Shown piece after piece: positions 7,894 through 63,717 of a stretch of 64,000 bases of DNA. The notes under the pieces are model-generated. The model worked only from the letters and a program-made list of their open reading frames with translations, did not search any database and was not told the origin of the DNA. Made by a program: the position numbers and the translations under genes. The stretch covers positions 1 to 64,000 of the forward strand of contig JBOFIK010000052.1 in NCBI GenBank assembly GCA_051650125.1. The letters run 5' to 3'. Numbering within the stretch: position 1 is the stretch's first letter; each line of letters opens with the position of its first letter. This DNA is from Sarcina sp. (lineage in GTDB: Bacteria > Bacillota > Clostridia > Clostridiales > Clostridiaceae).

Positions 7894-8045
7894 TTGAATG
7901 TTAAAAAAAATTCCTGTAAATCGTTTTCATCTTTTCTATATGTTTATAATAACAGGTTTTAAAATCTAAAACAAGCATTTTTTTACATTTTAAAGTATTT
8001 TTTCTTTTTTTAACATTTTGTTTTAATTTAAAAAGCCATTTTTTC

Positions 8046-10722: not shown

Positions 10723-10737
10723 AAAGAGGTGCTTAAT

Positions 10738-11364
10738 TTGAGTAAAGGCAAAAAAATATTAGTTACCATTTTATCTATAATAGTAGCTTTGATAATTGCT
10801 ACTATTATAACTTACTATGTTTCATTTAGTCCTAAAGTAGCTACTACTCCAGTGACTAGTAACATTCAAATAAATGAATTAAATCTTATTAAAAAGTTTA
10901 TTCCAACAGATGTAAATTTAAATCTCAAGGGTATAACTGCTAAATCTGATGCACAATTTAGCTCACAGGAACTTACAGACCTTGCAATCTATGCTGTTAA
11001 TCAAAGTCCTGAAGCTAAGCAGTACGTAACAGGTCTTCAAGTTAAAATTCTTGATGGTAATGTAATTATTTATATTACTGTAAACTACAAAGGTATTCCT
11101 TTTGAGGGAAAACTTGTATTTGAACCTTATGCTAAAGATGGTAAAGGAATTTTACATTATGTATCTGGTAATATCGGATTCATTCAAATACCTAAAAATA
11201 TCATTTTTAATAGCTTAGTAGACAACCCAATAATTCATTTTAACAAAACCGTTGGTGATATAATTCTTCATTTTGATAATCTAGGCCAAATTCAAATAGA
11301 AAATATATCTACTAAAGATGATAATATAGATATTATGTTTAAAGGTAGTATAAACTTATTTTAA
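10738..11364 (+). CDS. Hypothetical membrane-anchored (N-terminal TM) extracytoplasmic protein
   Basis: TTG start after AAGAGGTG. Single N-terminal TM, then a beta-rich domain. No recognisable motif. Confidence 0.5.
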   Translation: MSKGKKILVTILSIIVALIIATIITYYVSFSPKVATTPVTSNIQINELNLIKKFIPTDVNLNLKGITAKSDAQFSSQELTDLAIYAVNQSPEAKQYVTGLQVKILDGNVIIYITVNYKGIPFEGKLVFEPYAKDGKGILHYVSGNIGFIQIPKNIIFNSLVDNPIIHFNKTVGDIILHFDNLGQIQIENISTKDDNIDIMFKGSINLF

Positions 11365-11370
11365 TGCTAA

Positions 11371-11405
11371 GATGTGCCAATTTAATTGGTGCATCTTTTT
11401 TATGT
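11371..11405 (+). terminator. Rho-independent terminator
   Basis: agatgtgccaatt-t-aattggtgcatct (13-bp stem with 2 G-U wobbles) followed by tttttt. Confidence 0.6.
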
Positions 11406-11790
11406 TACGCTTTATTATATAATTCATCTTTTAAAATAAAATCTCGGAACATCAATATCACATAAGTAATACTATATATTAGAATTATATTTATTTTACA
11501 AAGGAGAAAAACTATAAACCAATGACACTAGCCTCTTTTTCAACAAATGATATTGTGGATGTAGTTCAAAGTGGGGCTGATTTTTCTTAAAAATTAGTAT
11601 TGCTAAATTCTATTTTAAGAACTTATACAAATAAAAAAAATTCTATTGCATGTATTCTTCAAGCATCAATTAAAAAGCTAGCGCTGATAATAATATATTA
11701 TCTTGTAAAATCAACTGTGCTTTTGAAAAATAATGCTTATTTTTTGATAGGACTTGATTGTCCTATTTCATACTAGTGAGGTGATTTAAT

Positions 11791-12504
11791 ATGAAAAACA
11801 ATAATTGTAGAGAAAAGCATTTTTGTCAAAAATGTTTTTGTAATCCCTGTACTTGCAATTATTCCTCTTGCTCTGATTCTTGTGATTCCTGTGATTCCTG
11901 TGATTGCTGTGATGATATAGCTGATATTCAAACTTCTTTAGAATCTATTTTAGACTTTGAAGCAAATATTTCCGAATGTGCTTCTAATCTTTTTAGTTAT
12001 ATTTTGCCTTGTGAATTAGACACTATTGATGATGCACAAAAAAAAATCAATTTATTTAGTACCCTACTACTTTCATATAGTAATAGAGCTGGTTCTTTAA
12101 GCAAACTAATAAATTCTGTAAGTTGCTTAGATGACTCATACATCCCTAATCCACATATAGAAGTTCTTGAAGATTGTTATAAAGAGAGTTGCAATCCTAG
12201 TTTAGTACGCCAACAACAACAACAACAACAACACCCTTGCCCAGCAAATAATTGCTATGACCCTTGCAAAAAAACTTCTCCAATTATTCGTATTGATGAC
12301 TTGAATCCTCCAAGCATCTGCGAGAACATAATTTATCCTCAACATATTTGTAACGGACTTTACTTTCTCGAAAAAATCAAAATTTATTTTTCAAAATGTA
12401 AAACTTGCAAAATATTTGAAGTTTATTTAAATTCTAAAACACAAAAACTTTTATACACTAATGCTAAAAATTCTTGCGGAATTTCTAAAACTTATATAGT
12501 ATAG
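11791..12504 (+). CDS. Cysteine-rich protein (25 Cys in 237 aa) with (SCD)n and poly-Q tracts, possibly a spore coat/exosporium-type protein
   Basis: N-terminus CREKHFCQKCFCNPCTCNYSSCSDSCDSCDSCDCCDD. Internal QQQQQQQH. GGTGA RBS. 425-bp AT-rich upstream region. Confidence 0.6.
   Translation: MKNNNCREKHFCQKCFCNPCTCNYSSCSDSCDSCDSCDCCDDIADIQTSLESILDFEANISECASNLFSYILPCELDTIDDAQKKINLFSTLLLSYSNRAGSLSKLINSVSCLDDSYIPNPHIEVLEDCYKESCNPSLVRQQQQQQQHPCPANNCYDPCKKTSPIIRIDDLNPPSICENIIYPQHICNGLYFLEKIKIYFSKCKTCKIFEVYLNSKTQKLLYTNAKNSCGISKTYIV
11866..11916 (+). repeat. 9-bp tandem repeat (TGTGATTCC-like, about 5 units) encoding (SCD)n within the Cys-rich gene
   Basis: ctctgattct tgtgattcc tgtgattcc tgtgattgc tgtgatgat. 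In-frame units, a substrate for slipped-strand length variation. Confidence 0.7.
12211..12231 (+). repeat. (CAA)7 trinucleotide microsatellite encoding poly-Gln
   Basis: caacaacaacaacaacaacaa inside the Cys-rich CDS. Confidence 0.8.
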
Positions 12505-12743
12505 GGGTATTTTTACAAATTCTTCTATCGCTTCATTTTTATTCACTTGATGAAAATTCTAATGAATTATCTAGTACCTTAACAGGGTTAAATTCTTATT
12601 CTAGATACTGTGAATTTATAAACCTTAAAAGTTGAAGGTTTACTACAAAAGTATCTCTAAAAAATTGTTGTAGTTCTTGATTGTAATTTTTTCTAAAAAA
12701 AAATGCTATAACACTTGATTGTGTTATAGCATTTGGATTTTTA

Positions 12744-13297: not shown

Positions 13298-13609
13298 ATG
13301 TCAGTTTATATAATTAATTACTATTTAAAAGAAGCAATGCACTCATGCGGATGTGGTTCAGACCATCACGAGCATCATGCACACGAAGAAAGAGATAACC
13401 ATGAAGTTATTGGAGAAATCAAAGAACTTGGAGCTTGGGCTGAACTTATGCCTGATTGCTACATAGTTAAAACTGAAAAATCTTCAGAAGAAATTGCAAC
13501 AAAAGTTAAATCTGTAATGGAAGCTCACGATAGAATATTTGTAACAGAAATAAATAAAGAAAATGCTGCCTCATTCACACCTGGTGTAATGGAATGGATC
13601 AGACAATAA
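13298..13609 (+). CDS. Hypothetical His/Cys-rich small protein (103 aa)
   Basis: AAAGGAG RBS. The CGCGSDHHEHHAHEE segment suggests metal binding. Followed by a strong terminator. Confidence 0.5.
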   Translation: MSVYIINYYLKEAMHSCGCGSDHHEHHAHEERDNHEVIGEIKELGAWAELMPDCYIVKTEKSSEEIATKVKSVMEAHDRIFVTEINKENAASFTPGVMEWIRQ

Positions 13610-52967: not shown

Positions 52968-55900
52968 TTATTCATTTTTCTCAAATGTAATACTAGTAAA
53001 AAAGTCATTAAACTTTTCATAATACGAATTTATAGAATGCGCCACAGAAAATTTATCTATTCCTGAAATCATCCACTTATTTCTCCCTAATAAATGTGAT
53101 TTAAGTCCAAATTGATTTATATGATCTTCATTCATTTTGTAATTATAAACTTTCTTACTTTTCTGTCCATGATTATCATATATATTAGTCATTGGAGTGA
53201 AACCTGGTGATGCAAATGTTGTTATTTTATGAATTTGACTTTTACTTTCTTTAAAAGTTTCAAGATACATACCTGCAACAACAAGTTTTAATGGTGTAGG
53301 AATTTGGTTATCTATATAATACTTTAACCCCTCTGAGCTAGTTGGTGTTAAATTTATTTCTGGGTTCAATAAAGACCCTCCAATTTTTTGCGCTAGCCAC
53401 CCACCTAATGAATGTCCTGCAATATAAATATTAGTAGCTCCTGTATTACTTTCTGAATTCAAAACTTTATTCATAAATTTATACGCCGCATATACTTGTT
53501 TGGAATTATTACCCAACAAAATCGCTCCACCATCAGTGAATAGCCAATCATTAAAACCTTCTGCCGAGAATTTTTCTCCACTTCCCTCAAATGCTATAAT
53601 AATATTCTCTCCATTTTTTAGAGCTATAGCTCCAAATCCTGAATCAAAAAAACCTTCTATTATTGTCGAATCATTACTCTCTATGACTTCCCAATTTTTT
53701 AACAAATCAAATTTCTTCCCTAAATTAAGTTCACTAACTTCTTTTCCTATTTTACTATCTGTCACTTTATAAGAAAGATTCGCCGCCTGCATAAAGATTT
53801 TATCTTGTTTCACAAAGTCACCACTATTAATATTAAACTCATACTTATTTTCATCATCTTTATCTGGTATTCCATCTCCATCCATATCTCCACTACCTGC
53901 TTCACCATGGATATCATCAGTAATATCTCCAATTTCCTCTCCAGTTTTTACATGATAATATTTCCCACCAGTTTCGTTTGCTATTTTTTCTAATAATGCT
54001 TTATCATATTTTGTTCCTAATCCTATTGTATATATTTTTATATTGTCATTTTTAGCTTGTTCTAGTGAACTATCATGGAATGTTCCTTCGCCATCAGTTA
54101 ATAGAATTATCTTTTTATTTCTATCTTTACTATTTTTCAGTTGTTGTATTGCACTATCAACTCCTGCTGATATATTAGTGCCACCACTATTAATTCCAAG
54201 TCTATTAACATTATCCAATAAAGCTTTTTTATCAGCTGTTAATGCTTGATAAACACTAGATGAACTTGAAAAACCAACTAATGCCATTTTATCTTCATTC
54301 TCTTTTTTATTTATAAAGTGTTCTGCTAATTTAACTCTGTACTTATTTCTATCATTACTAGACATACTTCCAGATGTATCTATAACAAATGCTAAGTCCA
54401 ATTTACCTTTTTCAGATGGGTGTTTAATTTCATTCTCCCAATACTTATCCCACTCATCTTTATCAATAATTAAGAATTGGTCATTTACAGAGTATTTGTT
54501 ATCTTCTTTACTTTCTATTCCATTCTCAAAATTAACTGTTATAATTCCTTTAGTAGACTTATCCTGTCCTTTTACTTCAACTAAAGTATTTAGCTCTTTA
54601 TCTAATTTATATAAAGTCGGATTTTTTTTATCATCTAGCTTAAGTTTACTATAATCAAATTTAAAACTAATATCCTTTGATGCTTTAGGTATCTTAACTA
54701 AATAAGGATTACCTAAATATCCTGGTGTTTCTTTCGATGTCATAACATGTGTATTTTTCATATTTACAATCGCTATATTAGCTATATCTTTACCAATAAA
54801 CTTTCCATTAATTTCAATTGATATATTTTCATCTAGGATATTAGCTGATGGTTTATGTGTATATTTTAAAAGTTCATCACCATCTAATGTTCCATTATCA
54901 TCAGTGTCTTTTTTATTTGGATTTAATTTTAGTTCTATTTCTTTTCCATCTAAAATCCCATCATCATCCGTATCTTTTTTATTTGGATTTGTCTTATATT
55001 TTTCTACTTCTTCCTTATCATTTAATCCATCAAAATCTGTATCTGCCTCTAAAGGATTTGTTTCTAACTTTTGCTCTTGTTTTACTGTTAATCCATCCTT
55101 ATCTTTATCCTCATCTCCATCTAAAACTCCATTATCATCACTATCTGGCTTTAAAGGATTTGTATCTGATATATAAACTTCAAAACAATCATCTAATCCA
55201 TCATTATCTGTATCAGCTTTTAAAGGATCTGTTTCATACATTAAAACTTCCTCTCCATCTAAAAGACCATCACCATCCGTGTCTTCTTTTAACGGATCTG
55301 TTCCAAGCTCTAGTTCTTCTTCATCACTTAAAGTATCATTATCTGTATCTTTAAATTCACTTACATGAACTTTTTTAGATTTACCCACTTTATTTCCATT
55401 AGCATCAAATGAAATAATTTGATAGTAATATTTTTTTGACAACTCATCAGCTTCTGCATCTAAATACATATTACTTGCAATATCTTTTTGGTACTCTGTT
55501 AGATTATTACTATCATTCCCTTTCATTATTGTATATTTTAAACTCTCATTTTTATCCCATTCTAAAGAAACAATATTCTTTCGTCTTTCAGCTTTTAAAT
55601 TTATTATTTCAAGCCCTTCATTAATTTCTGGTTCAACTCCTAATAAAATATTTCCATCATATAAAACTAATATTTTATCCCAGTTCATATAATCCTTTGC
55701 ATCTTTATTAAATGAATAATCATTTTCTTGATTATAAACCGGCCAATCTTTCTTGTTAACTCTACTATGAATCTCAAGTTCATTTCCTGCTGTTAATTTT
55801 TCACTGACATTCATTTTTAAAGATAAATATCTATCAGCATCTTCAAGTTCTTCAACCTTTACAATCTCTGATGTTATTTTTTCTTTTCCGATATTCGCCC

Positions 55901-56639
55901 AATCTATTACTATTTCTTCATTTGTCTCATTTCCATCTGAATCCCCAGTATAATAATACCTTACTTCTAGCTTTGATAAATCTAAGTCTGTATTACCTGA
56001 ATTTAAAATTTTAAACCACGGGTATATACTTGTTATATCTTTATCTAGGTATTTATTATACATTTTTGCATCTACTTTTATGATACTTTCCTCTTTTATT
56101 TCTGTTGGTAAAACTCCATGTATTAATTGCCCTTTATAATCAACAGTAACATCATTTGCATATGAATAATTCTTTTCTTGATTATAATTTTTATTATCTT
56201 TATTCTGTAATCTAATATTCAATTCAACTTCTTCATCTTTTTTTAATTTATTTAGCCCTTCATTAAATTTTATATTTATTTTACTATTTGCTTTTTCATA
56301 ATTTTTATCTAATTTTTCTATTTGTACATCTACTTTTGATTGGTCAACAGAACACCAATCCTTTACTATTTCTTCTTTTTCAATTCCTTGATTATCATAC
56401 CAATAACTTAATGCTAAATCATTTAAATTTAGTGCTTCTTCATTAATATTTTTAATCTTAATTTTAAAGGATATTGTGTTACTTTCAACTTCCTTTATAA
56501 CATCTTCCTTTGTTATTTCTACACTTTTTATAGTTTCAGCTTGTACAATCTTTCCTATTGAAAATCCTTGGAACATTTGTAGCATAAAAGAAGCTAATAT
56601 AAATATAGATATCCTTTTTTCTTTGTTTTTTATTTTCAT
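52968..56639 (-). CDS. 1223-aa secreted multidomain protein: signal peptide, 2x CBM3-like modules, FN3-like, thrombospondin-type-3 Ca-binding repeats, VWA (MIDAS), C-terminal class-3-lipase-like alpha/beta hydrolase
   Basis: CBM3 blocks RYYYTGDS ... KKDWPVYNQENDYSF ... NWDKILVLYDGNILLGVEP. TSP3 DxDxDGxxDxxE repeats (about 8). VWA DTSGSM ... GGTN ... LLTDG. Nucleophile elbow GHSLGG near the C-terminus. Confidence 0.75.
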   Translation of the reverse strand: MKIKNKEKRISIFILASFMLQMFQGFSIGKIVQAETIKSVEITKEDVIKEVESNTISFKIKIKNINEEALNLNDLALSYWYDNQGIEKEEIVKDWCSVDQSKVDVQIEKLDKNYEKANSKINIKFNEGLNKLKKDEEVELNIRLQNKDNKNYNQEKNYSYANDVTVDYKGQLIHGVLPTEIKEESIIKVDAKMYNKYLDKDITSIYPWFKILNSGNTDLDLSKLEVRYYYTGDSDGNETNEEIVIDWANIGKEKITSEIVKVEELEDADRYLSLKMNVSEKLTAGNELEIHSRVNKKDWPVYNQENDYSFNKDAKDYMNWDKILVLYDGNILLGVEPEINEGLEIINLKAERRKNIVSLEWDKNESLKYTIMKGNDSNNLTEYQKDIASNMYLDAEADELSKKYYYQIISFDANGNKVGKSKKVHVSEFKDTDNDTLSDEEELELGTDPLKEDTDGDGLLDGEEVLMYETDPLKADTDNDGLDDCFEVYISDTNPLKPDSDDNGVLDGDEDKDKDGLTVKQEQKLETNPLEADTDFDGLNDKEEVEKYKTNPNKKDTDDDGILDGKEIELKLNPNKKDTDDNGTLDGDELLKYTHKPSANILDENISIEINGKFIGKDIANIAIVNMKNTHVMTSKETPGYLGNPYLVKIPKASKDISFKFDYSKLKLDDKKNPTLYKLDKELNTLVEVKGQDKSTKGIITVNFENGIESKEDNKYSVNDQFLIIDKDEWDKYWENEIKHPSEKGKLDLAFVIDTSGSMSSNDRNKYRVKLAEHFINKKENEDKMALVGFSSSSSVYQALTADKKALLDNVNRLGINSGGTNISAGVDSAIQQLKNSKDRNKKIILLTDGEGTFHDSSLEQAKNDNIKIYTIGLGTKYDKALLEKIANETGGKYYHVKTGEEIGDITDDIHGEAGSGDMDGDGIPDKDDENKYEFNINSGDFVKQDKIFMQAANLSYKVTDSKIGKEVSELNLGKKFDLLKNWEVIESNDSTIIEGFFDSGFGAIALKNGENIIIAFEGSGEKFSAEGFNDWLFTDGGAILLGNNSKQVYAAYKFMNKVLNSESNTGATNIYIAGHSLGGWLAQKIGGSLLNPEINLTPTSSEGLKYYIDNQIPTPLKLVVAGMYLETFKESKSQIHKITTFASPGFTPMTNIYDNHGQKSKKVYNYKMNEDHINQFGLKSHLLGRNKWMISGIDKFSVAHSINSYYEKFNDFFTSITFEKNE

Positions 56640-62959: not shown

Positions 62960-63717
62960 ATCTTTTTCACCTCTATAACTTCTGTTTCTTCCTTTATCAA
63001 TTCCTTATTTTTATTTAAATCATCAGTCGTAATTATTCTTGCATCTTCTATATTTGAAAATGTTACATTACTATTCTTATCAAATTTTGAATTATCAATT
63101 AAAATATAAGCATTTGTAGTTCTTTTTATAGCTTCTTGTTTTACTAAGGCTTCTTTAATTTCAGGAGTCATATACCCTTTTTCAATTGAAACTCCATTAG
63201 TTCCAAAAAATCCTTTTGTAAAATTATATTTTTGAAGTGCGTTTATTGCTTCTATTCCTATAATAGCCTGTGTTGATCCTTTAATCTCACCCCCAAGCAT
63301 ATAAACTTCATAACCTCTTCTTGCTAACTTTTGAGCTTGATTAATTCCATTTGTTACATAAACTACTTTATCTACCTCTATGTACTCAATTAGCAATTCT
63401 GTTGTTGTTCCTGCATCAATATAAACAAAATCATCTTCCTCTATATAACTTGCTGCTTTTTTCGCTATAAGCTTCTTTTCTTCTATATTAATGTTTTTTC
63501 TTAAATTAACATCATCATCTTTCGACTTAAAGCTTTCTATTATAGATGTTGCCCCACCATGAATTTTTTTTAATTTCCCTTGTTTATCTAAAGCATTTAA
63601 ATCTCTTCTTATTGTAGACTCTGATGTATTTAAAGTTTCAACTAAACTTGAAACTTGCACACTACCATTTTTATTTAATTCATCTAAAATTATCCTGTGT
63701 CGTTTCGTTGTTAACAT
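62956..63717 (-). CDS. fruR: DeoR-family transcriptional regulator of the fructose operon
   Basis: N-terminal HTH (RHRIILDELNKNGSVQVSSLVETLNTSESTIRRDL) plus a DeoR C-terminal sugar-phosphate-binding domain. 4-nt overlap with fruK. Confidence 0.85.
   Translation of the reverse strand: MLTTKRHRIILDELNKNGSVQVSSLVETLNTSESTIRRDLNALDKQGKLKKIHGGATSIIESFKSKDDDVNLRKNINIEEKKLIAKKAASYIEEDDFVYIDAGTTTELLIEYIEVDKVVYVTNGINQAQKLARRGYEVYMLGGEIKGSTQAIIGIEAINALQKYNFTKGFFGTNGVSIEKGYMTPEIKEALVKQEAIKRTTNAYILIDNSKFDKNSNVTFSNIEDARIITTDDLNKNKELIKEETEVIEVKKI

What the first reader, a model, noticed from the sequence alone, without database searches (positions are those of the whole stretch)
11791..12504. Hyper-cysteine-rich protein with in-frame (SCD)n 9-bp repeats and a (CAA)7 poly-Q tract
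The protein is 237 aa with 25 Cys, 12 of them in the first 40 residues as C-x2-C / SCD iterations. Two coding microsatellites (9-bp x about 5 and CAA x 7) could give strain-to-strain length polymorphism. The composition resembles cysteine-rich spore coat or exosporium morphogenetic proteins of clostridia (for example CdeC/CotY-like). The long 425-bp AT-rich leader would fit sporulation-sigma control. No direct homology can be asserted from sequence alone.
Basis: partly seen in the sequence, partly recalled or inferred. Interest (0 to 1): 0.6.

Follow-up and report, generated by a model that had tools for sequence, protein, structure and literature searches.

The report
Cysteine-rich probable spore-surface protein, orphan family
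The cysteine-packed gene is real and belongs to a rare, unnamed protein family of spore-forming clostridia that most likely builds a cross-linked structure on the spore surface; here it is the only intact gene left from an eroded five-gene cluster.

Summary
Window 11791-12504 (+) encodes 237 aa with 25 Cys, 12 of them in the first 40 residues. It carries a 9-bp repeat (4.4 copies) and a (CAA)7.7 tract.

The protein matches no Pfam or NCBIfam family and is not CotY/CdeC/CsxA-like. Only about 11 relatives turned up among 1.84 billion representative proteins, all from clostridia (Sarcina, Clostridium).

The conserved parts are a roughly 70-aa alpha-helical hairpin and a roughly 55-aa C-terminal beta module. 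The Cys-rich N-terminus and the poly-Q linker are lineage-specific and predicted disordered.

In relatives the gene is third in a conserved trio: two hairpin proteins of about 100 aa (A, B), then this fusion protein (C). The trio sits with signal-peptide-less SdrD_B/DUF11/GEVED proteins. One locus adds a BclA-like collagen protein, a glycosyltransferase and rhamnose genes.

A sigmaK-like motif (GTAAC-N17-AATAnTATA) precedes the trio in nearly all loci.

In the window, the "425-bp leader" is that promoter fused to a pseudogene of B. A fragment of the SdrD_B gene lies downstream.

Best reading: a disulfide cross-linking subunit of a spore-surface polymer, analogous and possibly distantly related to Bacillus A-ENA "sporesilk" clusters. 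All of this is computational inference.

The parts
11369..11397 (+). Intrinsic terminator ending the upstream MFS-transporter / 211-aa gene operon. It sets the left limit of the transcription unit.
   Evidence: Terminator scan: 13-pair stem followed by a T-run.
11446..11476 (+). SigmaK-like promoter motif GGAAC-N17-AATACTATA (-35 'AC', -10 'aATAnnnTA'). It is inherited from the lost first gene (A) of the ancestral cluster.
   Evidence: The same motif, GT(A/C)AC-N16-17-(A/C/T)ATAnnnTA, lies upstream of gene A or of a stand-alone C gene in L001-L006 and L010. L008 and L011 carry one-mismatch versions. A slightly relaxed form of the motif hits 11 times in 183 kb, and 10 of those hits are at these positions. 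The strict motif is expected about once per 64 kb on both strands. The sigmaK rule (-35 AC, CATA-type -10) is taken from PMC3789822. The window copy has T->G in GTAAC.
11465..11510 (+). Remnant of the -10 / 5'UTR / ribosome-binding-site region of the lost 117-aa gene A.
   Evidence: blastn: 82.6% identity to L001 7220-7261, which lies immediately upstream of gene A. Alignment.
11540..11718 (+). Pseudogene of the 101-aa hairpin gene B. The 5' third is deleted, GAA has become TAA at 11588-11590, and there is a 1-bp deletion near 11683.
   Evidence: tblastn: B-protein residues 38-85 at 69% identity, then residues 83-97 in another frame. DNA alignment with L001-L003.
11746..11767 (+). Conserved stem-loop (GATAGGAC / GTCCTAT) between the end of gene B and the ribosome-binding site of the Cys-rich gene. 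Function unknown (mRNA processing or stability element?).
   Evidence: RNAalifold on four loci gives 8 pairs, one of them with a compensatory change in L002. Conserved in the alignment.
11778..11784 (+). Ribosome-binding site GAGGTGA.
   Evidence: Read from the sequence. Invariant in the four aligned loci.
11791..12504 (+). Intact coding sequence of the Cys-rich protein (family 'C'), 237 aa plus stop.
   Evidence: dN/dS against orthologues is 0.17-0.19, about the same as between two orthologues that sit in intact clusters (0.155).
11791..11916 (+). N-terminal Cys-rich region (residues 1-42, 12 Cys), predicted disordered. The motif CxKCFCNPCTC is conserved only within the Sarcina clade.
   Evidence: Alignments. 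AlphaFold2 pLDDT below 50.
11874..11913 (+). In-frame 9-bp tandem repeat x4.4, encoding the (SCD)n run. It is an insertion specific to this copy.
   Evidence: Tandem Repeats Finder. Orthologues have an 8-9-residue gap at this position.
11914..12123 (+). Alpha-helical hairpin module (residues ~42-111), paralogous to the small A and B proteins.
   Evidence: AlphaFold2 helices 42-71 and 79-111, pLDDT 61-76. hhalign against B proteins: probability 87%, E 3.7e-6.
12124..12330 (+). Hypervariable linker (residues ~112-180), Cys/Pro/Gln-rich and predicted disordered.
   Evidence: Across the family the linker varies from 0 to more than 400 aa. pLDDT below 50.
12211..12233 (+). (CAA)7.7 tract encoding seven Gln. 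Specific to this copy and located inside the variable linker.
12331..12501 (+). Conserved C-terminal beta module (residues ~181-237, five strands) with no known structural or sequence relative.
12531..12653 (+). Fragment of the lost downstream 257-aa SdrD_B-domain gene.
   Evidence: tblastn: residues 148-188 at 49% identity, E 2e-5. blastn: 75% identity to L001 9131-9219.
12701..12734 (.). Bidirectional intrinsic terminator shared with the convergent bPH_1 gene. It sets the right limit of the unit.
   Evidence: Terminator scan: 14-pair stem on both strands.

Best explanation
**What it is**
- The gene encodes the 'C' subunit of a conserved three-protein module (A-B-C) found in a few endospore-forming clostridia.
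- A and B are alpha-helical hairpin proteins of about 100 aa. Each has a conserved N-terminus (M-[A/S]-Y-P...) and a short Cys-containing C-terminal tail.
- C carries a paralogous hairpin. It is preceded by a Cys-containing N-terminal peptide and followed by a hypervariable, often Cys-rich, linker and a small conserved beta module.

**How it probably works (inferred)**
- The module is transcribed late in the mother cell from a sigmaK-like promoter.
- The proteins have no signal peptides, so they would assemble in the mother-cell cytoplasm onto the spore surface (outer coat, exosporium or appendage).
- The hairpins would stack with each other. The Cys-rich ends and linker would lock the assembly by intermolecular disulfide bonds.
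- The beta module of C would act as an oligomerisation or docking end, for example for the neighbouring SdrD_B/DUF11 proteins.
- This arrangement parallels Bacillus A-ENA 'sporesilk' clusters and may be distantly related to them. Those clusters combine single hairpin subunits with hairpin-passenger fusions.

**State of the window locus**
- The cluster has eroded. A is deleted, B is a pseudogene and the SdrD_B genes are gone.
- C is intact, keeps the ancestral promoter and ribosome-binding site, and has gained two in-frame microsatellites in its two disordered regions.

**Shown versus inferred**
- Shown: family anatomy, paralogy of the hairpins, synteny and erosion, conservation of the promoter motif, purifying selection.
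- Inferred: sigmaK control, spore location, disulfide cross-linking, hairpin stacking.
For: **Family anatomy**
- Two conserved modules are separated by a linker of 0 to more than 400 aa.
- AlphaFold2 gives a hairpin at pLDDT 61-76, a beta module at 82-95, and the rest below 50.

**Paralogy of the hairpins**
- C hairpin against B: probability 87%, E 3.7e-6.
- B against A: probability 90%, E 1.7e-6.

**The trio recurs in distant loci**
- It is present in L001-L003 (Sarcina), L004, L005, L010 (Clostridium MAG) and L011 (Peptostreptococcaceae MAG).

**Neighbourhood points to the spore surface**
- SdrD_B/DUF11/GEVED/DUF6923 proteins flank the trio. They have no signal peptide and have Cys-rich C-termini.
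- L011 adds a BclA-like collagen protein with (GxT)n repeats and a Cys-rich N-terminus. It also has a GT2 glycosyltransferase and rhamnose-pathway-type genes (NTP_transferase, dTDP_sugar_isom and epimerase families).
- DUF11 domains occur in a clostridial endospore-appendage anchor (PMC12357932).
- bclA genes are sigmaK-controlled in C. difficile (PMC3789822).

**Promoter**
- The motif is almost exclusive to the position upstream of A or of a stand-alone C.

**The gene is maintained**
- dN/dS is 0.17-0.19.
- A stand-alone C with the motif directly upstream also occurs in L006 and L007.
- In Clostridium sp. B9 the A-B pair lies at a locus (L008) that contains no C gene; the same organism's C protein (P0012) is not encoded there.

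**Parallel with A-ENA**
- Bacillus A-ENA clusters have several hairpin genes, fusions with collagen or SdrD_B/DUF11 passengers, and glycosyltransferases (PMC13111695; checked).
- hhalign of 24 A/B sequences against a 10-sequence A-ENA profile gives E 6.5e-4, probability 28%. The alignment is colinear from residue 1.
Against: - There is no expression, proteomic or microscopy data for any member of the family.
- Sigma-factor assignment rests on a motif whose -10 element mostly starts with A rather than the consensus C. The window copy also has a changed base in the -35 element (GGAAC).
- In the window the partner genes are destroyed, so this copy may no longer have a structure to join.
- Cysteine content is not conserved across the family, so disulfide cross-linking may not be the core function.
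- The hairpin part of the structural model has only moderate confidence.
Confidence: 0.55

Rival explanations
1. A gene in decay. After the cluster eroded, the Cys-rich gene is a functionless survivor. Its microsatellite insertions are early signs of relaxed constraint.
For: - Both flanks hold pseudogene fragments.
- The -35 element of the promoter carries a substitution.
- The two repeat insertions are unique to this copy.
Against: - A 237-codon ORF remains intact in DNA of 29% G+C.
- The ribosome-binding site is conserved.
- dN/dS of 0.17-0.19 is no higher than between orthologues in intact clusters. With dS near 1, a recent relaxation would not be visible, so this point is weak.
- Both insertions sit in regions that vary freely across the family.
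- A stand-alone C gene recurs in another lineage (L006 and L007).
Confidence: 0.17
2. An intracellular structural or fibre protein that is not tied to spores. It could belong to a cytoplasmic or lysis-released matrix of vegetative or stationary cells.
For: - The proteins have no signal peptides.
- The hairpin paralogues suggest a polymer.
- Nothing directly shows spore location.
Against: - The conserved motif has the mother-cell sigmaK form.
- The BclA-like collagen, rhamnose and glycosyltransferase neighbourhood is typical of exosporium loci.
- All named hosts belong to endospore-forming groups.
Confidence: 0.13
3. A metal-binding (metallothionein-like) or redox-buffering cysteine protein.
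For: - The N-terminal region has about 30% Cys, in CxC and CxxC spacings.
- A neighbouring 103-aa protein has a Cys/His-rich stretch.
Against: - The Cys pattern is not conserved. N-terminal Cys counts range from 0 to 12 among relatives.
- The conserved parts are the hairpin and the beta module, which carry few Cys.
- No match to any metal-binding family was found.
- There are no metal-resistance neighbours.
Confidence: 0.07
4. A precursor of a secreted cysteine-rich bacteriocin or ribosomally made modified peptide.
For: A Cys-dense N-terminus.
Against: - At 237 aa it has two folded conserved modules.
- There is no leader or cleavage motif. No radical-SAM, lanthipeptide or ABC-export genes are adjacent in any locus.
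- No bacteriocin family matches consistently. One weak Helveticin_J hit in one family member, E 0.03, is noise.
Confidence: 0.03

Closest known systems
A-ENA ('sporesilk') alpha-helical endospore appendage clusters of Bacillus thuringiensis/cereus (PMC13111695; PDB 9ihh)
   Same: - Subunits are alpha-helical hairpins of about 100 aa with a conserved N-terminal peptide: M-G-M-P-T-I-P..L in A-ENA, M-[A/S]-Y-P-x5-L/I in the A and B proteins here.
- Several paralogous hairpin genes lie in tandem.
- There are 'fusion' members made of a hairpin plus a passenger domain.
- Neighbours include DUF11/SdrD_B proteins, collagen-like proteins and GT2 glycosyltransferases.
- Subunits appear built for covalent linking to each other.
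- A-ENA1 also ends in a CSC tail.
   Different: - Sequence relationship is unproven. hhalign gives at best E 6.5e-4 and probability 28% for A/B. There is no signal for the C protein directly.
- A PDB sequence search with the A/B profile does not find 9ihh.
- A-ENA is cross-linked by isopeptide bonds between Lys and Glu/Gln/Asn. Here the obvious reactive residues are cysteines.
- The passenger domain of C (the beta module) is not among the passenger classes the paper lists (collagen/C1q, SdrD_B/OmcB, 4Fe-4S).
Cysteine-rich exosporium and coat morphogenetic proteins: CdeC/CdeM (C. difficile), CotY/CotZ/ExsY (Bacilli), CsxA/CsxC (C. sporogenes, SPOCS domain)
   Same: - They have high Cys content and no signal peptide.
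- They are presumed to self-assemble in the mother cell and to be stabilised by disulfide bonds (PMC7677010; bioRxiv 10.64898/2026.09.03.749163).
- They are under late mother-cell control.
   Different: - No sequence or domain similarity was found. No Pfam or NCBIfam hit appeared, even at E up to 10, for any of 14 family members.
- The architecture differs: hairpin, disordered linker, small beta module.
- Cysteines are concentrated in non-conserved disordered segments rather than in a conserved fold.
S-, L- and F-type endospore appendages (Ena1/Ena3 DUF3992; F-ENA DUF4183) with their anchors (PMC12357932)
   Same: - They are spore-surface polymers built from small subunits.
- Terminal peptides latch subunits together. 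From my own knowledge of the S-ENA literature, the N-terminal connectors of S-ENA are Cys-containing; this was not checked here.
- Clostridial anchors contain DUF11 domains.
   Different: - Those subunits are beta-rich (jellyroll or beta-barrel), not helical hairpins.
- No DUF3992 or DUF4183 match was found here.

Membership tests
CotY/CotZ/ExsY spore coat/exosporium family | Match to the family's sequence model (Pfam Spore-coat_CotZ) | tested here: not met
   hmmscan against Pfam-A at E up to 10 did not list this family, either for the window protein or for any of the 14 family members.
CsxA/CsxC-type SPOCS-domain exosporium proteins | Presence of a SPOCS (SpoVID-CotE-SipL) domain (bioRxiv 10.64898/2026.09.03.749163) | tested here: not met
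   No Pfam or NCBIfam domain of any kind was detected. The predicted fold is a helical hairpin plus a small beta sheet. That the SPOCS domain is represented in Pfam is my own knowledge, not checked here.
CdeC (C. difficile exosporium morphogenetic protein) | CdeC-type size (44.7 kDa) and redox-sensitive motifs: CX2CX(6-7)CX4CX(3-4)C, CX8CX(6-7)C and VDXFX3CXF (PMC7677010) | tested here: not met
   - The protein is 237 aa.
- Residues C12-x2-C15-x6-C22-x4-C27-x3-C31 fit the first spacing, but only if intervening Cys are ignored. The fit is lost in the orthologues.
- By my reading of the sequence, no VDXFX3CXF motif is present.
- NCBIfam gave no hit. No direct alignment to a CdeC sequence was made.
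A-ENA (alpha endospore appendage) family | Alpha-helical hairpin subunit of about 100 aa | tested here: met
   - AlphaFold2 predicts helices 42-71 and 79-111 in C, at moderate pLDDT of 61-76.
- A and B are 96-119 aa and homologous to this hairpin.
A-ENA (alpha endospore appendage) family | Significant match to an A-ENA sequence profile (the authors' rule is hmmsearch E <= 1e-7 with their HMM) | tested here: inconclusive
   - The authors' HMM is not held.
- I built a 10-sequence A-ENA profile from Bacillus plasmids.
- hhalign against 24 A/B sequences gives E 6.5e-4 and probability 28%, colinear from residue 1.
- Against the C family the probability is 0.2%.
- The A/B profile does not retrieve 9ihh from PDB sequences.
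A-ENA (alpha endospore appendage) family | Conserved isopeptide donor, acceptor and catalytic residues (K42/K76/K77/K84; E29/Q44/N64/E78/Q82; E28/E39/E41/E86) | not tested
   No alignment reliable enough to map these residues could be made. The 47 aligned columns cover only the latch and helix 1.
A-ENA (alpha endospore appendage) family | Cluster organisation: several hairpin genes plus hairpin-passenger fusions, with collagen-like, SdrD_B/DUF11 and glycosyltransferase genes | tested here: met
   - This is met in the relatives, not in the window. See L001-L003, L010 and L011.
- The Bacillus clusters for comparison are L015 and L016, as described in PMC13111695.
Metallothionein / SCIFF-type Cys-rich peptides | Short peptide with a conserved Cys pattern; for SCIFF-type peptides, an adjacent radical-SAM maturase | tested here: not met
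   - The protein is 237 aa.
- The Cys pattern is not conserved.
- No radical-SAM gene lies in any of the loci examined.

The most novel reading that the evidence does not exclude
The A-B-C trio encodes a previously undescribed class of clostridial spore-surface fibre or lattice. Alpha-helical hairpin subunits (A, B) would stack as in Bacillus A-ENA 'sporesilk'. They would be locked by disulfide bonds from Cys-rich terminal peptides instead of isopeptide bonds. The Cys-rich C protein would be the anchor, tip or cross-linker. It would use its hairpin to enter the polymer and its new beta module to hold the SdrD_B/DUF11 and collagen-like decorations.
Probability: 0.3. Interest if true: 0.7.

Novelty: new variant of a known kind. 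Interest (0 to 1): 0.5.

Why it matters
**Why it would matter if true**
- Spore-surface polymers decide how spores stick, clump and resist stress. Several new classes (S-, L-, F- and A-ENA) were discovered only in 2021-2026, mostly in Bacilli.
- A rare clostridial module built from helical hairpins with cysteine-rich ends would extend the A-ENA idea to anaerobes.
- It would also show a second chemical solution, disulfide instead of isopeptide, for making a covalent protein fibre. Such fibres interest people working on robust biomaterials.

**What the window adds**
- It shows how such accessory clusters erode, leaving one gene under the old promoter.
- It shows that cysteine-rich repeat expansions arise in the disordered parts of these proteins.

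**Caveat**
- For the gene in the window alone the significance is moderate. It is an orphan, possibly partnerless, member of the family.

Tried and rejected
**Searches that found nothing useful**
- Pfam and NCBIfam scans of the protein and of 14 relatives gave only noise.
- PDB sequence searches with the C profile and the A/B profile gave only chance hits. The 1353-aa neighbour gave none.
- Rfam over the whole window gave no hit.
- A metagenome scan for close relatives, meant to compare repeat copy number, found none.
- The sigma-70 promoter scan of the leader was no better than shuffled sequence.

**Runs that failed or were unavailable**
- AlphaFold2 with 6 sequences gave pLDDT 35 and was unusable.
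- The AlphaFold-database fold library was not available.
- The search for related loci with the 14-sequence alignment failed because it had no conserved stretch. With the 6-sequence alignment it found one further Sarcina locus.
- Contigs encoding P0001 (the window protein) and P0012 were not on record. The rest of this genome could therefore not be searched for other A/B copies.
- The A-ENA authors' HMM is not held as a supplement.

**Ideas considered and dropped**
- A weak tblastn hit of protein A at window 63427-63549 (E 0.07) was judged noise.
- The CATACTAGT sequence just upstream of the ribosome-binding site was considered as a promoter -10 element. It was rejected because it lies too close to the start codon.
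Full report
**1.

Window 11791-12504 (+) is an ATG-initiated ORF of 237 codons plus stop. It holds 25 Cys, or 10.5%. The mean over the 47 window ORFs of at least 150 aa is 1.2%, and the next richest ORF has 3.2%. Twelve Cys lie in the first 40 residues.

Tandem Repeats Finder gives a 9-bp in-frame repeat at 11874-11913 (4.4 copies, 93% matches) and (CAA)7.7 at 12211-12233. Only 20 repeat rows of score 40 or more exist in the whole 64 kb, so two inside one 714-bp gene is unusual.

A strong ribosome-binding site, GAGGTGA, precedes the ATG. The window is 29% G+C. An identical protein is annotated as hypothetical in a Sarcina sp. metagenome-assembled genome.

**2. The family is rare, unnamed and modular.**

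Pfam and NCBIfam give no credible match. A word-indexed search of 5.8 billion protein clusters found six proteins. An exhaustive HMMER profile search of 1.84 billion representatives found 11.

The organisms that are named are Sarcina sp. and Clostridium sp. B9.

The alignment shows what is conserved:
- a segment of about 70 aa (residues ~45-111) with the pattern ..SLESILDSEA.ISECA..LF...QKKINLF..LL.SY.NR..S..KLI;
- a C-terminal segment of about 55 aa with the pattern NGIYFLEKI.IY.....F..Y.NS....L....A.N.......TYI.

Between them lies a linker that ranges from nothing (146-149-aa members) to more than 400 aa. It is Asn/Gln-rich in one member. In Clostridium sp. B9 it consists of about 20 repeats of CCKPCEEPHCKPH.

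The N-terminal Cys count ranges from 0 to 12. The (SCD)n run and the poly-Q tract are insertions present only in the window copy.

With 15 sequences, AlphaFold2 predicts the following:
- two long helices, residues 42-71 and 79-111, at pLDDT 61-76;
- a five-stranded beta module, residues 181-237, at pLDDT 82-95;
- disorder (pLDDT below 50) for the Cys-rich N-terminus and the linker.

**3. The surroundings show an eroded cluster.**

Three other Sarcina genomes keep the same flanking genes: an MFS transporter and a 208-aa gene on the left, and bPH_1, a 103-aa gene and a methyltransferase on the right. Between these flanks they carry a larger insert:
- on the minus strand, a LytR-family gene and a 297-aa gene;
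- on the plus strand, a 117-aa gene (A), a 101-aa gene (B) and the Cys-rich gene (C);
- then a 257-aa SdrD_B protein;
- then an 1174- to 1353-aa protein with DUF11, DUF6923, GEVED and SdrD_B domains.

In the window, DNA and protein comparisons show four things:
- 11465-11510 is the promoter and ribosome-binding-site region of gene A, 83% identical to the relatives.
- 11540-11718 is the 3' two-thirds of gene B. It carries a GAA-to-TAA nonsense change at 11588-11590 and a 1-bp deletion near 11683.
- 12531-12653 is a fragment of the 257-aa SdrD_B gene.
- Everything else in the insert is gone.

Terminators at 11369-11397 and 12701-12734 bracket the unit. The "425-bp AT-rich leader" is therefore an ancestral promoter fused to a dead gene.

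The C gene itself looks maintained. dN/dS against the orthologues is 0.17-0.19. That is about the same as the 0.155 between two orthologues in intact clusters. With dS near 1, a recent loss of constraint could not be seen.

A stand-alone C gene in the same chromosomal position occurs in another lineage (L006 and L007). In Clostridium sp. B9 the A-B pair lies at a locus (L008) with no C gene; that organism's C protein (P0012) is not encoded there. C therefore does not need adjacent A and B genes.

**4. A conserved trio of hairpin proteins.**

The helical module of C is homologous to B (hhalign probability 87%, E 3.7e-6). B is homologous to A (probability 90%).

The order A, B, C recurs in distant metagenomic loci L004 and L005. 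It recurs in a Clostridium MAG, L010, where A-B is duplicated. It also recurs in a Peptostreptococcaceae MAG, L011.

A and B begin with a conserved M-[A/S]-Y-P-x5-[L/I] and end in short Cys tails such as FSCNSCK or KLSCDCKK. A profile search with A and B found only 18 clusters. The named hosts are all clostridial: Sarcina, Clostridium, Romboutsia and Peptostreptococcaceae.

**5. Why a spore surface role is the best reading.**

- By my own reading of the N-termini, none of A, B, C or the SdrD_B/DUF11 proteins has a signal peptide or a wall-sorting signal. No signal-peptide predictor was run. Large Ig-fold repeat proteins usually have such signals. Lacking them fits assembly in the mother cell.
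- Nearly every protein in the cluster starts or ends with a short Cys-rich peptide.
- L011 adds a 206-aa protein with a Cys-rich N-terminus and GxT collagen triplets, as in BclA. It also adds a GT2 glycosyltransferase and genes of the families used for dTDP-rhamnose synthesis: NTP_transferase, dTDP_sugar_isom and two epimerase-family genes. From established knowledge of Bacillus anthracis and C. difficile, this is the classic make-up of an exosporium nap locus.
- DUF11 domains occur in a clostridial endospore-appendage anchor (PMC12357932).
- A motif GT(A/C)AC-N16-17-(A/C/T)ATAnnnTA lies 35-75 nt upstream of gene A in most loci examined (about 130 nt in L004), or upstream of a stand-alone C gene. 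L008 and L011 have one-mismatch versions.
- Chance expectation for the strict motif is about one per 64 kb on both strands. In 183 kb of window plus clostridial loci a slightly relaxed form hits 11 times. Ten of those hits are at exactly these positions.
- A -35 'AC' with a CATA-type -10 element is the signature that separates sigmaK from sigmaE promoters in C. difficile and B. subtilis. bclA genes belong to that regulon (PMC3789822).

There are three caveats:
- I derived the motif from the same sequences it is scored on.
- Its -10 element mostly begins with A rather than C.
- The window copy reads GGAAC.

**6. Comparison with what is known.**

The protein is not a member of the CotY/CotZ/ExsY, CdeC or CsxA/SPOCS families (membership table).

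The A-ENA paper (PMC13111695) describes:
- a 101-aa helical hairpin with a 13-residue N-terminal latch (MGMPTIPEGLDIT) that stacks into cross-alpha fibres;
- fibres locked by intermolecular isopeptide bonds;
- homologues in Bacilli and Clostridia, and clusters with several hairpin genes;
- "fusion" members whose passengers are collagen/C1q, SdrD_B/DUF11 or 4Fe-4S domains.

I confirmed this neighbourhood in Bacillus plasmids.

The parallel with the A-B-C trio is close in several ways: subunit size, hairpin fold, conserved N-terminal peptide, tandem paralogues, a hairpin-passenger fusion, and the same kinds of neighbour.

The sequence evidence is only suggestive. As I enlarged both profiles, the hhalign E-value fell from 0.14 to 0.0036 and then to 6.5e-4 at probability 28%. 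The last alignment is colinear from residue 1 through the latch and helix 1.

C compared directly with A-ENA gives nothing. I therefore state the analogy with confidence and treat homology as unproven.

**7. Mechanism proposed.**

This is inferred. Late in sporulation, sigmaK-type RNA polymerase would transcribe the cluster. A and B hairpins would stack into a polymer on or around the spore.

C would join through its paralogous hairpin. Its Cys-rich N-terminal peptide and linker would form intermolecular disulfides once the mother cell lyses. Its beta module would provide an end for oligomerisation or for docking the Ig-fold and collagen-like proteins.

Repeat expansions such as (SCD)n here, or the CCKPCEEPHCKPH repeats in Clostridium sp. 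B9, would tune the number of cross-linking cysteines and the length of the spacer.

In the window lineage, C either works with partners encoded elsewhere or is a relic. I could not search the rest of the genome.

**8. Verdict.**

The gene is a new variant within a known kind of system and belongs to an uncharacterised family. Interest is moderate for the window gene itself. It is higher for the A-B-C module it points to.

Noticed in passing
window 11746-11767; also L001 ~7957-7978 and L002 ~7934-7962: A conserved stem-loop (GATAGGAC..GTCCTAT) lies between the stop codon of gene B and the ribosome-binding site of the Cys-rich gene. L002 has a compensatory change and an extended stem. No T-run follows, so it is not a classic terminator. 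It may be an mRNA processing or stabilising element that uncouples expression of C from A and B. The stand-alone C gene in L006 also has a small hairpin (AAGTTTA..TAAACTT) in its 5'UTR.
   Followed up: partly
L011 1-17287 (Peptostreptococcaceae MAG contig, 18 kb): The A-B-C cluster sits with a Sel1-repeat protein, rhamnose-pathway-type genes, a 699-aa DUF6923/GEVED/SdrD_B protein, a BclA-like collagen protein, a GT2 glycosyltransferase and a Rep3-type replication protein. The cluster may therefore be plasmid-borne here, as A-ENA is on pBtoxis.
   Followed up: partly
L010 7258-14227 (Clostridium sp. MAG): The A-B pair is exactly duplicated (A-B-A-B), each copy with its own promoter motif, and is followed by a 162-aa C. 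Four large DUF11/GEVED/SdrD_B proteins lie next to it, and a TnpB-like (Cas12f1-like_TNB) gene lies downstream.
   Followed up: no
P0012 (Clostridium sp. B9, 579 aa): The linker of this family member contains about 20 tandem copies of a CCKPCEEPHCKPH-like unit and a GRPPF repeat. This is an extreme case of the Cys-rich repeat expansion seen on a small scale in the window.
   Followed up: no
window 13298-13609 (+): A 103-aa protein with a Cys/His-rich stretch (HSCGCGSDHHEHHAHEE) and no Pfam match. It is a conserved right-hand neighbour of the locus in all Sarcina-type loci, including those with a stand-alone C (L006). Any relation to the Cys-rich gene is unknown.
   Followed up: no
window 10729-11364 (+): A 211-aa protein with an N-terminal membrane anchor and no Pfam match, translationally coupled to the MFS transporter. 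It is the conserved left-hand neighbour of the locus and is fast-evolving (67% identity to L001, against 87% for the transporter).
   Followed up: no
window 52968-56639 (-): A 1222-aa protein combining cellulose-binding CBM3 modules, bacterial TSP3 repeats and a von Willebrand A domain. From my own knowledge, Sarcina cells are embedded in cellulose, which makes this protein worth a look.
   Followed up: no
L006 ~4213 (- strand): The only hit of the promoter motif that is not upstream of A or C lies on the opposite strand. It sits in the gap between the stand-alone C gene and the 103-aa gene. Its significance is unknown.
   Followed up: no
L014 2959-3270 (-) (B. thuringiensis pBtoxis-like plasmid, A-ENA1): A-ENA1, the minor paralogue of the sporesilk subunit, ends in ...LKLCSCRKSSDY. 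This is a CSC tail reminiscent of the Cys tails of the clostridial A and B proteins. The major subunit, A-ENA, has no Cys.
   Followed up: no
L016 6219-8255 and 9728-11509 (B. mycoides plasmid): In B. mycoides the A-ENA-like hairpin sits at the C-terminal end of DUF11-domain proteins, so the passenger comes first. Hairpin-passenger fusions therefore occur in both orders.
   Followed up: no
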